NCBI GenBank assembly: GCA_015661075.1
Contig: JACVQJ010000011.1
Location: 2,257-66,256, forward strand
Reading direction: 5' to 3'
Length of the DNA: 64,000 nt
From: Parachlamydiales bacterium
GTDB taxonomy: Bacteria; Chlamydiota; Chlamydiia; Chlamydiales; SM23-39
Part shown: one piece after another, positions 9,433 through 47,179 of the stretch
Layout: each line of letters opens with the position of its first letter
How positions within the stretch are numbered: position 1 is the stretch's first letter
Position numbers and translations under genes: made by a program
Notes under the pieces: generated by a model
Seen by the model: the letters and a program-made list of their open reading frames with translations, nothing else
What the model was told of the DNA's origin: nothing
Databases searched by the model: none

Positions 9433-9469
9433 GACAAAAAATGCCCTCGGTCGAGTATAAGTACTGTTA

Positions 9470-9635
9470 GGAGCTGATCAACGATAAAGTAAACCATTTG
9501 GCTAGCGTGAAAGCTCTCTAGGGTCAACGATCGTAAGTGGGCTAGTATTAATAAAGCAATACAAGCCTACTTACGATCGTTGACCCTAGTGGCTTTGACG
9601 CAGCCAAATGGTTTACTTTATCGTTGATCAGCTCC
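9470..9635. repeat. MITE-like nested palindrome, copy A (166 bp), flanked by a TTA duplication
   Basis: Perfect 35-bp inverted repeat (9469-9503 against 9602-9636). Inner perfect 21-bp inverted repeat (9518-9538 against 9569-9589) containing CAACGATCGT. TTA is present at 9467-9469 and 9636-9638. It sits in the der-sulP spacer. Confidence 0.65.
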
Positions 9636-9648
9636 TTAAGCGGCGCCT

Positions 9649-12593: not shown

Positions 12594-13756
12594 CTGTGCT
12601 GGACAAAAAATAAATTGATGAAGAGAACTCGCTGAAGAGCGATCATATCTCGTTGATTTTCAAACATCGAGGTATAATGAAGCACGTCAGCGAGCTGCAA
12701 AAAATTTTATCGCATTTCTTTGATTGGAACAAGGCCCGTTTAGATTGCCTAGGGCAAATCATTCAGGCTTTGTTCGTAGTCAGAACTATAAACCTGACCC
12801 AAGTTGCTTCAGCCTTCAAGTCGGAGGTCAAGGAGGAGTCGTCATACCGAAGAGTCTGTCGATTCTTCACTGGTTTCACCTTCGACATGAGTACAATCGT
12901 CCCTCTGGTTTTCCGCCTGTTTCCTTTCGGCGATAAATGCACTCTAATCCTGGATCGCACGAACTGGAAGTGGGGAAAAATTCCCATCAATATCTTGATG
13001 CTCTCGATTGCCTACAAAGGTATCGGCATTCCACTATTCTGGGTTGTTGTGCTGAATCTTGAAGGCAACTCGTGCGCGGGGGACATGATCGATCTGCTAA
13101 AACAAGTTGTGAAACCGCCTTGGGATCAATAGATTCGAGGCACTTCTCGCGGATCGCGAATTCATAGAAACGCAGTGGTTTCGCTTTCTGATCGAACAGA
13201 AAATTCCATTCGTTATCAGGATTAAACAGAATTCCATGGTGGAAATCGGAGAGAATGACAAACTTCCAATAGGACGCCTACGGAAACGGCTCTCAAAGAA
13301 AAAAGTTGTGGTCTTTCCCTCTACGTTTCGATCGAAAAGAGAAAAGGCGCCAAGGAACAAATGATCGTGGTCTCCAACTTCAAATTCGATGATCCTCTGG
13401 GGATGTATAGGAGGTGCTGGGAAATCGAAACTATGTTTGGTTGTTTGAAGACCTGTGGGTTCCGAATGGAGGACACTCACATCACCGATCCAGACAAAAT
13501 TGAGAAGATAATGTTCGTTCTGGCGATCGCTTTCTGCTGGGCATACCGAATGGGGGTATCCAGGATCAGATACGGGCGATAGAGGTCAAAACTCATGGGA
13601 GAAGAGCTAGGAGCCTCTTTAGGGAGGGGCTAAATCTGATTCGCCGAGCAATTTTTGGGAGATGGGCTCTAAGAAAATTCAGGCGACTGTGTCCGTGTTT
13701 TACGTGTTTAGAACCAACTGGTTGTGCGCTATGAATTTATTTTTTGTCCAGTACAG
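12594..13756 (+). mobile_element. decayed IS4-family insertion sequence (about 1.16 kb) with intact terminal inverted repeats
   Basis: 23-bp terminal inverted repeats with one mismatch: CTGTGCTGGACAAAAAATAAATT at 12594-12616 against the reverse complement of 13734-13756. They enclose transposase fragments. Confidence 0.75.
12653..13734 (+). pseudogene. IS4-family DDE transposase, broken by at least three frameshifts
   Basis: The fragments carry LILDRTNWKWG (D), LLADREF (D, second frame) and YRRCWEIETMFGCLKTCGF (the YxxRxxxE..K signature). The C-terminus KTHGRRARSLFREGLNLI is in yet another frame. Confidence 0.75.
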
Positions 13757-14821: not shown

Positions 14822-15329
14822 AAGTATACCATGTGATTCAAAAATCGAGAATTGGGCAAGAAGGCACCCTGAATTTGAGCCAAGCGAAATCGACGCCGAA
14901 ACAGCCCAACTTGAATAAGTTCGATGATGCGGGCGAGCTCAAAGGCTGTGGCTGCCGATGTAGCCCAAAATCGATTTTTGAAGCATGTTCGGTAAAAGTG
15001 ATAGTTAATAATTCACGCATTCCAATCTAAGATTCATTTGATAAAAGCCCTTCAAAAGAGGCTTTTTATGGTAATGCCGCCTCTCTAGTTCCCTGTTCAT
15101 GGATTTTACTCTAAACCTGTATACAATTCAATGAGTGGCAACAGCATAGTGTTTTTTCATTGTTCTCAGAGGAAACCTCTGGTAAGATGTAGCATTCTTT
15201 TATTGCAGATAACAGTATTGTATATGGCATCCTCGTATACGACTGCTCGAGTACAGGCTCTCTAAGAGTGGCTGAACTTGAGGATCAAAATATTAAAATT
15301 GATGCTTAAAAAATGGAGCCCACTTTTTC

Positions 15330-20105: not shown

Positions 20106-20269
20106 GGGCTGTTTCGAAGATAAAACCCATCAAATCAGACGCTCATGTTTTTATTTTTCAAATTTCGAGTAATTTTCGATTTATAATGAATTGTCATCAC
20201 CTGACTTGTTTAGCTTGTCAAATTAAATTATTAATGTTTTTTGTCCCCTTCGAAACCATTTGGGAGCCC
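20106..20269. repeat. possible degenerate MITE-like element, copy H (164 bp)
   Basis: It starts with TTA|GGGCTG, like copy B. Its ends form an imperfect inverted repeat (GGGCT-GTTTCGAAG against CTTCGAAAC..GGGAGCCC). Its size matches copies A and D. No clear duplication at the right end. Confidence 0.3.
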
Positions 20270-30793: not shown

Positions 30794-30902
30794 ATGTTGT
30801 CTCCGTAGATCAGGCTTATTTTGACTTTAGGGCGAATTCATAAACTTATCAAGAGGGCAGATGTGGATTTTATTCTTGGGCGCGAGAAAACCCAATCCTT
30901 TA

Positions 30903-31053
30903 GGGCTGATCGTTACCCACAAGTTCCGTTTCCAGAGGGAGGCGAGGCAAAGCCAGATGGAAGCGTAAGCGGTCCGAATGGTGAAGCCCATAGCTGAAAG
31001 CAGCAAAGCCGCAGCCCCCTATGGAAACGGAACTTGTGGGTAACGATCAGCCT
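30903..31053. repeat. MITE-like nested palindrome, copy B (151 bp), flanked by TTA
   Basis: 31-bp perfect inverted repeat GGCTGATCGTTACCCACAAGTTCCGTTTCCA at 30904-30934 against 31022-31052. TTA at 30900-30902 and 31054-31056; the wider direct repeat is CCTTTAGGG. Confidence 0.65.
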
Positions 31054-31094
31054 TTAGGGGCGGCGGGCGGCTCTAAAAACGTACAAAGTCGAGA

Positions 31095-31409
31095 TTAAGT
31101 GCTTTTTTGAATGAGCTTGGGTCGATAGATTCCCTTGTCGACTATTTCCAGCAGTCGTAGGGCTGCATGACTCGGAACTCGTTCTCCCGATTCCCAGGAT
31201 TGAACGGTTTTAATGCTGACATTCAAAACTTTTGCAAAAACGCCCTGAGAATACGGCCCCTTTTTTCGGATATTTTTAATGTGGTTGGCTGAGTATGAAA
31301 TAGGGGGTTCTGGGATTTCAATAATCTCGGATTGAAGCGTAATCTTACCTTGTTTATGAGCAAGTATTTCTTCGAGGCCTCCTTTTAATTCTTCAAAAAA
31401 TCTGCTCAT
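31095..31409 (-). CDS. XRE-type HTH antitoxin (YiaG/NadS-like)
   Basis: 104 aa. The C-terminal HTH is SQGVFAKVLNVSIKTVQSWESGERVPSHAALRLLEIV. Its ATG overlaps the inferred original toxin stop (ATGA). Confidence 0.75.
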   Translation of the reverse strand: MSRFFEELKGGLEEILAHKQGKITLQSEIIEIPEPPISYSANHIKNIRKKGPYSQGVFAKVLNVSIKTVQSWESGERVPSHAALRLLEIVDKGIYRPKLIQKST

Positions 31410-31864
31410 TTTTTCCCCTTAATTGCATTGGTTATCTTTTTCAAGACAGCTTTTTCTTCCGCGCTTAGGGATCGTTCAAGAATAAAGTTTAGTGTTGTCG
31501 AGGAGAAAAACGGTTTAGATTTTGAGAATTTTTCCGCAGCTGAGAGTCTTGTTTCTCTCTGTTGAACGATCCCTTAAATTTTCTTGTTCGTTTTTTTGAA
31601 AAACCTGAATCAGGTAAATAGTTTGCCTAAATACATAGTAAAAATAACAAACCCGAAAGCCTCCGCTCTTTCCCCTCGATGCAGATTTTAATCTTATTTT
31701 TCTAACGCCGCCAGTTCCTGTCAGGACAGTCCCCTTTTCTGGATTTTCAGCCAGCTCTCTTTTAAGGTCGTTGTAATCGTCCTGCAAAAGACTATGCCGA
31801 TTCAACAAAGCGGCAATTTTTTTGAAAACGCCGTGGTTTCGGTTATTTGAATCTTTGTATTCAT
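31406..31864 (-). pseudogene. RelE/ParE-superfamily toxin, inactivated by a homopolymer frameshift and a MITE insertion
   Basis: MNTKIQITETTAFSKK (frame a) continues as LLQDDYNDLKRELAENPEKGTVLTGTGGVRKIRLKSASRGKSGGFRVCYFYY..VFQKNEQENL (frame b, after the A7 run at 31817-31823). A 106-bp insertion then separates it from SAEEKAVLKKITNAIKGKK*. Confidence 0.65.
31468..31573. repeat. MITE-like element, copy C (106 bp), inserted in the toxin gene and flanked by TTA
   Basis: 12-bp perfect terminal inverted repeat GGGATCGTTCAA (31468-31479) against TTGAACGATCCC (31562-31573). TTA at 31465-31467 and 31574-31576. Removing it restores the toxin reading frame. Confidence 0.7.
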
Positions 31865-45411: not shown

Positions 45412-46755
45412 ATGTCTATCAATGTAACTATAATACCTAGTGCTGATCCATTACAAAGAGCTGCCGTTCCTGATTCGGAAAAGCCTTCTCCCACAGTTGT
45501 AAAGACCGACAGGGTAGTTAGAGGTTCACTCGCTGAAACGAGAGCAGTGGGTGCAAAAGAAAACTCATCTATTTATCAGTGCTTTGAATATATAGACGCG
45601 AAAGGGAATCGGGGCCGTTTTGTTCGAGAGTTGAATCTGAAAGATGCGAAGGATGATGCACTTATTAGTGAATATCATAAATATGTGGACGATTTGAAGA
45701 ATAAATATAATGACTTCGTGACGATTGATATACAGGGTGGCGAGGTGTTGTTGAAGAATGGTACGACGATTAATCTGCGAAAGGACTCTTCTGATTTACA
45801 GGCTCTTCAAGCTCTTCGTGGAATTGTAAAAACCTTTGAAGAGAAAATGAAATTAAATGCCACGCGTTGGGTTAATTACGGTGAACACGAACGCGGCGAT
45901 TCTGGCGGAAGAGCCTGTCTGGAGATTTCAGAGTTGATGCGAAGGCAACCCATTAGCACATGGACTCTCGATGATTTCATCAAACATGGATTCCAAATTG
46001 ATGGCAAAACTTACTCAGAGATTCAGCGTCGTCTTTTTGATAATTGGATGCTGGAACAATTCTTGAAGGCACTTGTTCGAACAATCGATCATAAGATACT
46101 CGGGCAGCAAAGTAAAATGGTTGGTGCTGCTTCGGCGGGGGAGGAGCAAATCGTTCTCAATCATCTTCATTATTTCAAGAGTCAACTTGAAAATTGCTAT
46201 CAACCGGCAATGGTTTATTCCTTGTTGTTTGGAAAAGATAATCCATCGATTAGCGAAGTAGTCGAGCAAACCCAACAAATTGTGGCAGTACTGGATCGTA
46301 CAAGAACAGGGAGATCTCTCAAAGAAAAACTCCTCAAAGGTGGGCCTGATGAGTCAATGTTCAGCTATGCGAAAAGAACGTTAGCAGAAGATATGACCCT
46401 TCTGAGTGTCTCCGATCCCCAAAACTACAGTCACCTATGCCGCGAACTCGCTCTACATTCGCAAAGAGATCCGCTGGAGTTGGTTCTTTGCCAGTTGGTG
46501 CGCCATCGTGATGATTCTGATGGGGTGACGAACTTTCTCGCTCATCCGCAGATTGAAGAGCTGATGAAAGGATTGCCGCTCGCGATGCGCGATGAAATTA
46601 AGGGCTTCGTAACTCAATTTGTCTCAGACGCCCAGCAGTTTTATACGACAATCCCGAAAGATGGTGATACCAAAGAGGCGATAAAGGAATTCGATGCTGC
46701 TGTAAAAACGCAGATGGCGAGTTCGGCAGCTCAATACCCCGCTTTACTTGGTTAG
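45412..46755 (+). CDS. orphan protein
   Basis: 447-aa ORF, divergent from the six-gene operon. No recognisable domain. Confidence 0.55.
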   Translation: MSINVTIIPSADPLQRAAVPDSEKPSPTVVKTDRVVRGSLAETRAVGAKENSSIYQCFEYIDAKGNRGRFVRELNLKDAKDDALISEYHKYVDDLKNKYNDFVTIDIQGGEVLLKNGTTINLRKDSSDLQALQALRGIVKTFEEKMKLNATRWVNYGEHERGDSGGRACLEISELMRRQPISTWTLDDFIKHGFQIDGKTYSEIQRRLFDNWMLEQFLKALVRTIDHKILGQQSKMVGAASAGEEQIVLNHLHYFKSQLENCYQPAMVYSLLFGKDNPSISEVVEQTQQIVAVLDRTRTGRSLKEKLLKGGPDESMFSYAKRTLAEDMTLLSVSDPQNYSHLCRELALHSQRDPLELVLCQLVRHRDDSDGVTNFLAHPQIEELMKGLPLAMRDEIKGFVTQFVSDAQQFYTTIPKDGDTKEAIKEFDAAVKTQMASSAAQYPALLG

Positions 46756-46916
46756 GCGTCGTAAGCAAATAACTATTTCATTTTGCGGCCATTATAGAAG
46801 CCCATCTGTAAACGATCGCTCCTCGGAGATATTAGAAAATATCCCGCTCGTCGCGATCGTTCACATTTGCACCTCTCTAAAGCCACTAAATGCAACACTT
46901 ATTTGCTTACGACGCC
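46755..46916. repeat. MITE-like nested palindrome, copy D (162 bp), flanked by TTA
   Basis: 19-bp perfect inverted repeat AGGCGTCGTAAGCAAATAA at 46754-46772 against 46899-46917. The inner imperfect inverted repeat contains AACGATCGC / GCGATCGTT. TTA at 46752-46754 and 46917-46919. Confidence 0.6.
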
Positions 46917-47179
46917 TTAGTAATTTTTTGATGACAATTAAATGCGGATGTTATATAATAAAAATAGGGAGATGCTGACTCATTCGTTTGATGAAGCGTT
47001 TGAACGCACTTCTTGCCGCAATCCCACCCCTTCAGGGGTGGGTCTAGGCAAGATATTTTATTCCTGCGGTATGCGGCTTTAGCCGCACCGCAACCTTAAG
47101 CGGAAGAAGAATCTCCTCCTTTCAAGGAGGAGTTCTTCAATAATAGGAATGTTTCTAATAAATAAAAAAGAGGTGAAAA

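What the first reader, a model, noticed from the sequence alone, without database searches (positions are those of the whole stretch)
9467..9638. Family of 106-166 bp nested-palindrome MITE-like elements with TTA target duplications
Five loci share one architecture: long terminal inverted repeats starting with GG, inner inverted repeats, and TTA on both flanks.
- A: 9470-9635, 166 bp, with 35-bp perfect arms.
- B: 30903-31053, 151 bp, with 31-bp arms.
- C: 31468-31573, 106 bp.
- D: 46755-46916, 162 bp, with 19-bp arms.
- H: 20106-20269, 164 bp, probably degenerate.

The arm sequences differ between copies. Most copies nonetheless contain a recurring (A)ACGATC(G) core: CAACGATCGT in A, CTGATCGTTACC in B, GGGATCGTTCAA in C, and AACGATCGC in D. 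B and H both begin with TTA|GGGCTG.

The elements sit next to stop or start codons: der/sulP, the POT gene stop, the spacer upstream of sctP, and the stop of the 447-aa ORF. No intact transposase in the window has matching ends.

The combination of conserved architecture with divergent primary sequence is unusual. It could also reflect a structured-RNA family and not simple MITEs.
Basis: seen in the sequence. Interest (0 to 1): 0.65.

Follow-up and report, generated by a model that had tools for sequence, protein, structure and literature searches.

The report
ISAzo13-derived MITEs in an environmental chlamydia
Three of the five palindromes (A, C, D) are small transposase-less mobile elements made from the two ends of an ISAzo13-type insertion sequence that insert at TTA/TAA; the fourth (B) is an unrelated miniature transposon with Tn5-like ends and the fifth (H) is not an element, so this is ordinary selfish DNA, though apparently undescribed for chlamydiae.

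Summary
The palindromes at A, B, C and D are real. H is not: it folds no better than shuffled sequence and is single-copy.

A, C and D form one superfamily of about 165-bp MITEs. They share GG at positions 1-2, RATAA at positions 14-18, near full-length hairpin symmetry, and a 3-bp TTA/TAA target duplication. Removing C plus one TTA restores a HigB-like toxin ORF.

Other contigs of the same genome hold at least 10-16 C copies. All 20 flanks read are TTA or TAA. Four are complete, at 165 bp; three show both flanks, which match. D has about 3 copies.

Full-length elements with the same termini and TTA duplications encode ISAzo13-family transposases (PF07592). One end matches the C terminus almost exactly, and another matches the D terminus.

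B belongs to a different family. Its TTA lies inside a perfect 9-bp duplication (CCTTTAGGG). Its ends (CTGATCGTTACCCACAAGT) match the Tn5 outside end at 14/19 positions. It shares a conserved hairpin core with elements at 62739-62855 and 63274-63447 and in other chlamydial MAGs.

Window copies B (151 bp) and C (106 bp) lack 28 and 59 nt relative to other assemblies of the same locus.

No structured-RNA family is supported.

The parts
9467..9638 (.). MITE A. Element 9470-9635 (166 bp) with a TTA duplication at 9467-9469 and 9636-9638. It lies between the der stop (9432) and the sulP start (9649).
   Evidence: 35-bp perfect arms. GG at 1-2 and GATAA at 14-18 on both ends, TTA/TTA flanks. Hairpin energy -131 kcal/mol against -37 for shuffles. 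The interior is single-copy, but short diverged arm-only contigs exist in the same runs.
31465..31576 (.). MITE C. Element 31468-31573 with a TTA duplication, inserted in the 3' part of a Gp49/HigB-like toxin pseudogene on the minus strand. The window copy is 106 bp; complete copies are 165 bp and other data show this locus extends past the window's deletion.
   Evidence: Removing 106 bp plus one TTA gives ...KNEQENLSAEEKAVLKKITNAIKGKK* in one frame. The long form is partly supported at this site: L001/L002 run past the deletion junction from the left flank and an X1 contig carries the missing right sub-end. Complete 165-bp copies lie at other sites in the same genome; three show both flanks, TTA/TTA or TAA/TAA. 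Depth of the internal unitig is 146-185 against 11.
46752..46919 (.). MITE D. Element 46755-46916 (162 bp) with a TTA duplication. The duplication plus the first G of the element forms the TAG stop of the 447-aa ORF.
   Evidence: TIR GGCGTCGTAAGCAAATAA(C/G)T and TTA/TTA flanks. A 164-nt contig has depth 36-38 against 11, and other copies' contigs show TTA at a left and at a right junction. The same terminus sits on a frameshifted ISAzo13 element in L030, and a D-like MITE end with a TAA flank is in L015.
30897..31059 (.). MITE B, a different family. Element 30906-31050, flanked by the 9-bp duplication CCTTTAGGG. The window copy is 145 nt between the duplications and lacks 28 nt of the central hairpin.
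   Evidence: Perfect 9-bp repeats and CTGATCGTTACCCACAAGT on both ends, matching the Tn5 outside end at 14/19 (Tn5 sequence confirmed in PMC3347997). Other copies carry 9-bp repeats GCAGAAGCC x2, CCGCTTAGG x2 and GCGACAGAC/GCGATAGGC. About 10 copies by depth.
20106..20269 (.). Locus H. Not supported as an element; at most a fully decayed relic.
   Evidence: Only the left side has TTA|GG..GATAA; the right flank is ATG. Fold energy is -28.3 against -25.6 +/- 4.2. Single copy, with one contig running through it.
63274..63447 (-). Element I4 (174 bp). Carries the same conserved hairpin core as B but has different arms (TTACTAAC...GTTAGTAA). No TTA duplication.
   Evidence: Pairwise alignment with B. 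nhmmer 131 bits on the minus strand. Alignment A1.
62739..62855 (-). Element J (117 bp). A shorter relative of I4 with the right half of the core and TTACTAAT...ATTAGTAA ends.
   Evidence: A similar copy lies in L008 next to an IS3-like transposase end.

Best explanation
A, C and D are non-autonomous miniature transposons (MITEs) made from the two ends of ISAzo13-family insertion sequences. Each keeps about 80 nt of either end:
- the terminal GG;
- a conserved RATAA at positions 14-18;
- the rest of a long (about 45-60 bp) terminal inverted repeat, which in the full-length elements holds two sub-terminal CATAGA-like repeats.

Because both halves are long inverted repeats, the whole 162-166-bp element is nearly one long hairpin.

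A DDE transposase of the ISAzo13 family (Pfam PF07592), supplied in trans, is inferred to bind both ends, cut the element out and insert it at TTA or TAA. The 3-bp staggered cut leaves the TTA/TAA duplication.

Shown: the duplication, multiple copies, one gene-disrupting insertion, and full-length partners with the same ends and the same duplication.

Inferred: that a working transposase is present in this genome, and that transposition is cut-and-paste.

B is a separate MITE with Tn5/IS50-like ends and a 9-bp duplication. H is not an element.
For: 1. Target duplication. Excising C plus one TTA restores the toxin reading frame. A, C and D have TTA on both sides.
2. Copies elsewhere in the same genome. 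Ga0206225 contigs are 100% identical to the window where they overlap. They hold 4 complete 165-bp C copies and 12 contig-end copies. All 20 flanks are TTA or TAA, and the three complete copies with both flanks read have matching flanks: TTA/TTA, TAA/TAA, TAA/TAA.
3. Unitig depths. TTA+GGGATCG has depth 117 out of 141 for A+GGGATCG, against unique depth 11.
4. A contig of another D copy ends in TTA|GGCG at its left junction and another contig in GCC|TTA at a right junction.
5. Parent for C. In L015 the terminal 30 nt GGGATCGTTCAAGAATAACTTTTAGTGTTT (the C terminus) leads directly into the C-terminal 98 aa of a DDE_Tnp_ISAZ013 transposase, E 1.3e-34.
6. Parent for D. The L030 IS end is GGCGTCGTAAGAAAATAACT, the D terminus, with a TAA flank.
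7. Full-length 1.39-kb elements with 411-aa transposases, at two different sites, read TTA|GGGGTTGTCAGGAAATAAC...|TTA (L039, L040).
8. All 9 IS termini and all 5 MITE termini align with GG at 1-2 and RATAA at 14-18.
9. The signature TWA-GG-N11-RATAA occurs 27 times in 235 kb against 2.8 in shuffles, though most hits come from the ascertained C copies.
10. The literature states that ISAzo13 and its eukaryotic relative Zator make 3-bp duplications (PMC10045372).
11. For B: 19 of 20 positions outside the central 5 nt of the flanking 9-mers agree between the left and right copies in five copies.
Against: - No ISAzo13 transposase gene lies in the window or in the roughly 130 kb of further contigs of this genome that I could read. 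The only hint of one is ISAzo13-like contigs at similar depth (about 11-12.7) in the same runs.
- The full-length partners come from other metagenomic or MAG contigs, not from this genome.
- No partner with the A terminus was found. A rests on architecture alone, and its interior is single-copy.
- One deleted IS (L029) has unequal flanks, TAA and TTA.
Confidence: 0.85

Rival explanations
1. The elements are MITEs of the IS5 / PIF-Harbinger lineage, the classic makers of TTA/TAA 3-bp duplications with GG termini (Tourist-like).
For: TTA/TAA duplication and GG ends. PIF/Harbinger elements give 3-bp duplications (PMC2213677 abstract). This was my first working idea.
Against: Every full-length or partial element found with these termini encodes PF07592 (ISAzo13), not an IS5-type transposase. 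The conserved RATAA at 14-18 and the sub-terminal repeats match those ISAzo13 ends.
Confidence: 0.04
2. The loci are a structured-RNA or regulatory-hairpin family, kept for their fold (terminators, mRNA stabilisers or small RNAs) and not mobile.
For: Very stable hairpins: A -131, C -92 and D -93 kcal/mol against about -30 to -37 for shuffles. One strand folds better in each case: D minus strand with 7 G-U pairs against 0, C plus strand with 3 against 0. The elements sit next to gene ends.
Against: C lies inside an ORF, and its removal restores the ORF. Copies occur in both orientations at unrelated sites with target duplications. No Rfam family matches at the gathering or permissive threshold. 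The strand bias could equally come from differences between the left and right IS ends or from mutation bias. For D, the better-folding strand is antisense to both neighbouring genes.
Confidence: 0.05
3. All five loci (A, B, C, D, H) are one family moved by one transposase.
For: Similar size, GG-like starts, TTA next to each left end, and GCTGATC shared by A and B.
Against: B has a 9-bp duplication and Tn5-like CTGATCG ends in six copies across four genomes. H is not palindromic and is single-copy.
Confidence: 0.03

Closest known systems
ISAzo13-family insertion sequences (Pfam PF07592, 'Rhodopirellula transposase DDE domain'; eukaryotic relatives: Zator)
   Same: Termini of the full-length elements fetched here match the MITE termini position for position: GG at 1-2, RATAA at 14-18, TTTTAG-like next. 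They have the same 3-bp duplication and TTA/TAA flanks (PMC10045372).
   Different: A, C and D carry no transposase. They are about 165 bp, not about 1.4 kb. The TWA target preference and the long TIR with two sub-terminal repeats are my observations on these chlamydia-associated copies, not documented family traits that I could cite.
Bacterial MITEs that fold into long hairpins (Correia/NEMIS of Neisseria, ERIC, RUP, Nezha)
   Same: Small, non-coding and multi-copy, with TIRs plus a target duplication, mostly intergenic, occasionally gene-disrupting, and transposase supplied in trans.
   Different: Different parent IS families and different duplications (for example TA for Correia, from general knowledge). 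A 2024 review of prokaryotic MITEs does not mention Chlamydia at all (PMC10969869).
Tourist MITEs / PIF-Harbinger (eukaryotes) and the IS5 family
   Same: 3-bp TTA/TAA duplication and GG termini, so they work alike.
   Different: Unrelated transposase family. The partners found here are ISAzo13.
Tn5 / IS50 ends (IS4 family), for element B only
   Same: 9-bp duplication. The first 19 nt match the Tn5 outside end CTGACTCTTATACACAAGT at 13-15 of 19 positions.
   Different: No B-type transposase partner was found here. My flank counts favour 9 bp.

Membership tests
MITE (miniature inverted-repeat transposable element) | Short (<300 bp), non-coding, with terminal inverted repeats | tested here: met
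   A is 166 bp, C is 165 bp (106 bp in the window) and D is 162 bp. TIRs are 19-35 bp perfect and extend imperfectly to the apex.
MITE (miniature inverted-repeat transposable element) | Target-site duplication of fixed length | tested here: met
   3-bp TTA/TAA on 20/20 C flanks, matching pairs on the three complete copies with both flanks read, and ORF restoration on excision.
MITE (miniature inverted-repeat transposable element) | Several copies at unrelated sites | tested here: met
   C: 10-16 copies. D: about 3. A: one intact copy plus diverged arm fragments, so this is weakest for A.
MITE (miniature inverted-repeat transposable element) | A full-length autonomous element with the same ends | tested here: met
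   L015 has the C terminus next to an ISAzo13 transposase C-terminus. L030 has the D terminus. L039 and L040 are intact elements. None is from this genome, and none has the A terminus.
ISAzo13 family | DDE transposase matching PF07592 | tested here: met
   E 1.3e-34 for the L015 fragment. 403-411-aa homologues carry PF07592.
ISAzo13 family | 3-bp target duplication | tested here: met
   TTA/TTA at L039 and L040. The literature statement is in PMC10045372.
ISAzo13 family | An active transposase present in the same cell | tested here: inconclusive
   None in 195 kb of this genome. ISAzo13-like contigs at similar depth occur in the same runs.
Structured RNA family (Rfam) | Match to a curated covariance model, or a discrete transcript | tested here: not met
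   No match on the elements. Transcripts could not be tested because no RNA runs were examined.
Integron attC sites | Outer RYYYAAC ... GTTRRRY cores forming the outermost pairs | tested here: not met
   The ends read TTA|GG...CC|TTA. The TTA is a direct repeat, not an inverted one.
IS4 family / Tn5-like (element B only) | 9-bp duplication and CTG... termini | tested here: met
   A partner transposase was not tested.

The most novel reading that the evidence does not exclude
The roughly 100-nt hairpin core is more than transposon baggage. It reads GCGAGGCAAAGCCAGATSGAAGC ... GGATSSATATGGCAAAGCCGCAGC, with non-complementary A-rich internal loops kept on one strand. MITEs with unrelated ends share it: B with Tn5-like ends and 9-bp duplications, and I4, J and others with different arms. 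It is 83-95% identical between chlamydial MAGs whose neighbouring orthologous proteins are only about 55% identical. On this reading it would be a strand-specific functional module (RNA or single-stranded DNA) that is exchanged between element families or selected by the host.
Probability: 0.1. Interest if true: 0.6.

Novelty: new member of a known kind. Interest (0 to 1): 0.3.

Why it matters
The finding explains a set of striking palindromes in the type III secretion region of an uncultured environmental chlamydia as ordinary mobile DNA. It also names their source, the little-studied ISAzo13 family.

Practical consequences:
- These elements break assemblies and appear to cause local assembly errors. 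Two window copies are shortened at the hairpin apex.
- They inactivate genes, here a toxin of a toxin-antitoxin pair.
- They sit within about 10 nt of start codons and on stop codons, so annotation and promoter inference near them need care.
- The GG-N11-RATAA plus TWA signature gives a simple way to find ISAzo13 ends and their MITEs in other genomes.
- Pathogenic Chlamydia genomes are nearly free of IS elements (5.7% of Chlamydiae genomes hold any IS, PMC9208149). A genome with several active MITE families shows how different the environmental relatives are.

Tried and rejected
- An exact 21-mer of C found nothing in genome contigs, so this genome is not in that collection.
- Scans of viral contigs with the C and D termini gave only chance hits or nothing.
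- Laying relatives' contigs (X3, X8, X9, X11) on the der-sulP region gave no empty-site joint because coverage was too low.
- The IS4-family element at 12594-13756 has unrelated ends (CTGTGCTGGACAAAAAATAAATT) and is not a partner for any of these MITEs.
- IS5/PIF-Harbinger parentage, attC sites and REP/REPIN elements were considered and dropped (see rivals and membership rows).
- Literature searches found no description of MITEs in chlamydiae or of ISAzo13-derived MITEs.
- The listing of cluster members gave no sample identifiers, so I could not pick the transposase of this very genome.
- The 5-bp reading of B's duplication (TTTAG with GG...CC ends) was rejected. In five copies the two bases on either side of the central 5 agree between left and right at 19 of 20 positions, and the supposed terminal dinucleotide varies (GG, CC, AC, GC).

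Full report
**Observation.** I read the five loci and scanned the window for inverted repeats.
- A (9470-9635) has 35-bp perfect arms.
- B has 52-nt arms at 85% complementarity.
- C (31468-31573) has 12-15-bp arms.
- D (46755-46916) has 19-21-bp arms that extend imperfectly.
- A strict scan for TTA|inverted repeat|TTA recovers exactly A, C and D.
- H is different. Only its left end resembles the others, its right flank is ATG, and its fold energy (-28.3 kcal/mol) equals that of shuffled sequence (-25.6 +/- 4.2). By contrast A, C and D reach -131, -92 and -93 against about -30 to -37.
- One Logan contig passes through H at single-copy depth, with no related contigs.

**Mobility.** Deleting C plus one TTA joins two frames of the minus-strand Gp49/HigB-like toxin into ...KNEQENLSAEEKAVLKKITNAIKGKK*, which stops at the antitoxin start. 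This agrees with an earlier first-reader note.

Contigs of two runs that match the window perfectly (X1, X2) have unique depth of about 11. Short unitigs inside the elements are much deeper:
- C: depth 146-185.
- B: depth 107-111.
- D: depth 36-38.

The interior of A is single-copy, with a few diverged arm fragments. Unitig depths also show that TTA precedes GGGATCG in about 83% of the C-type depth (117.5 of 140.8).

**More copies.** I therefore spent the metagenome scan on a degenerate pattern covering both C ends.
- It returned 17 contigs, 15 of them from sample Ga0206225. That assembly is 100% identical to the window where they overlap, so it is the same genome.
- They hold four complete C copies, all 165 bp, and twelve contig-end copies.
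- All 20 flanks in this genome are TTA or TAA. Three complete copies show both flanks: TTA/TTA, TAA/TAA, TAA/TAA; the fourth starts at its contig's edge and shows only TAA. Both orientations occur.
- The duplication is therefore 3 bp, with target TWA.
- The window's 106-bp C lacks 59 internal nt. Two other assemblies of the same locus (L001, L002) continue past the window's deletion junction into the long form's sequence, and an X1 contig running in from the right flank carries the sub-terminal sequence that the window lacks.
- The window's B lacks 28 nt that those assemblies and the X1 unitigs contain.
- Both gaps lie at hairpin apices. They are probably assembly artefacts or rare variants.

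**Shared end architecture.** A, C and D (and the left side of H) have GG at positions 1-2 and RATAA at positions 14-18. GATC and CGATCG are, however, 2-fold and 3.5-fold enriched throughout the window.

**Parent.** One metagenome hit, L015, is not a MITE.
- After cta|GGGATCGTTCAAGAATAACTTTTAGTGTTT the sequence runs into the last 98 codons of a transposase on the opposite strand. Pfam assigns these to DDE_Tnp_ISAZ013 (PF07592) with E 1.3e-34.
- L015 also starts inside a D-like MITE that ends ...CGGCGCC|TAA.
- Homologues of the fragment led to further loci:
  - L029, a chlamydial contig with a TLC translocase gene, holds a 769-bp deleted element with 45-nt TIRs GGGRTC..AAAAATAACTTTTAC and flanks TAA and TTA.
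  - L030 holds a frameshifted element whose end is GGCGTCGTAAGAAAATAACT, the D terminus, with a TAA flank.
  - L031 has a TAA flank.
- A read-through of the L030 transposase found hundreds of 403-411-aa PF07592 proteins at 60-81% identity.
- Their loci show intact elements of about 1.39 kb:
  - L039 and L040, at different sites, read TTA|GGGGTTGTCAGGAAATAACTTTTAGAGC...|TTA.
  - Five further loci show at least one flanked end each; every flank readable at those ends is TTA or TAA.
- All IS and MITE termini align with GG at 1-2 and RATAA at 14-18.
- The IS ends have inverted repeats of about 45-60 bp with two CATAGA-like repeats near offsets 31 and 53.
- A MITE that keeps about 80 nt of each end is therefore nearly a perfect hairpin of about 165 bp. 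This explains the 'nested palindrome' architecture and the uniform size.
- The literature states that ISAzo13 and eukaryotic Zator make 3-bp duplications (PMC10045372; PMC5718144).

**Own transposase.** tblastn of four full-length transposases finds nothing in the window or in the other contigs of this genome that I hold. Laying L015's IS end on X1 and X2 shows ISAzo13-like contigs of 0.7-2.5 kb at depth 8-12.7, similar to this genome's depth. That is only a hint.

**Element B.**
- With more copies the flanks are 9-bp direct repeats: CCTTTAGGG twice (window), GCAGAAGCC twice (L009, same genome), CCGCTTAGG twice (L004), GCGACAGAC/GCGATAGGC (L007), and CCAAAAAGG/CCAAACAAGG (L005).
- The element proper begins CTGATCGTTACCCACAAGT. 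This matches the Tn5 outside end CTGACTCTTATACACAAGT at 13-15 of 19 positions (sequence confirmed in Tn5 papers).
- The TTA beside B is therefore coincidental, and B belongs to another family, most likely IS4/IS50-like.
- An earlier agent's note on another window calls a similar 180-bp MITE IS701-derived with 5-bp repeats. I could not check whether it is the same family.
- In MAG4 (L005) a B copy and a second core-bearing element fill a 453-nt divergent spacer. The orthologous spacer in this genome (L021) is 92 nt and empty. These elements are therefore insertions too.

**Shared core.**
- B, I4 (63274-63447), J (62739-62855) and elements in L004, L005, L008, L019 and L022 share a strongly strand-asymmetric core. 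nhmmer gives 163 bits against 21 bits on the two strands.
- RNAalifold finds 33 pairs, 16 of them with double changes.
- This agrees with earlier agents' remarks on a co-varying hairpin core.
- I treat it as a side observation. No Rfam family matches.

**Verdict.** The MITE reading is right for A, C and D and is now tied to ISAzo13. B and H do not belong. This is a new member of a known kind, of modest interest.

Noticed in passing
window 62739-62855 and 63274-63447: Two core-bearing palindromic elements (J and I4), in the same orientation and with related TTACTAA...TTAGTAA ends, bracket a 130-aa ORF (62861-63253, minus strand) that has no Pfam match. The arrangement looks composite.
   Followed up: partly
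L004 1816-1992, L005 2040-2228, L007 1760-1945, L003, L006 versus L011/L009: B-type MITEs are 83-95% identical between this genome and other Chlamydiota MAGs. Next to the L005 copy, the orthologous proteins are only about 52-57% identical to this genome's. This suggests horizontal spread of the element or strong constraint on it.
   Followed up: partly
window 30936-31004 and 31480-31573: The window assembly lacks 28 nt (B) and 59 nt (C) at hairpin apices compared with two other assemblies and the Logan unitigs of the same population. These are probably assembly errors at palindromes.
   Followed up: yes
window 46924-47010: No X1 or X2 contig covers the sequence just right of D (depth 0), although both runs match the window elsewhere. 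This could be a mis-join or a strain difference at the repeat.
   Followed up: no
window 46989-47140: A repeat of about 150 nt immediately after D has copies in the same genome (L021 4615-4761 at 90%, L022 4509-4659 at 84%). It is probably the IS200/IS605-type PATE family that earlier notes describe for this genome.
   Followed up: no
window 14825-14997: A copy (80.6% identity) of a 173-bp palindromic repeat found at L024 7224-7397 (TATACCGAACG...CGTTCGGTATA ends). This is yet another MITE-like family.
   Followed up: no
window 31063-31095: A solo arm (GGCGGCTCTAAAAACGTACAAAGTCGAGATT) of a further palindromic repeat family, seen complete at L024 142-325 and 7432-7534, lies directly beside B.
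   Followed up: no
window, whole: GATC occurs 488 times (about 250 expected). CGATCG occurs 49 times (about 14 expected from base composition), including in coding regions.
   Followed up: partly
L034, L035, L036, L038: In four contigs the outer 13 nt of one ISAzo13 terminus are replaced by ...GGATGAACC next to an ISL3-family transposase gene. One IS appears to have inserted into the end of the other.
   Followed up: no
window 46755-46916 (D) and L010 6035-6199 (C): Arm mismatches are strand-biased. D forms 7 G-U pairs on the minus strand and none on the plus strand (-92.7 against -63.9 kcal/mol). C favours the plus strand (-91.6 against -73.2). The cause is unknown: differences between the left and right IS ends, mutation bias or selection.
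   Followed up: partly
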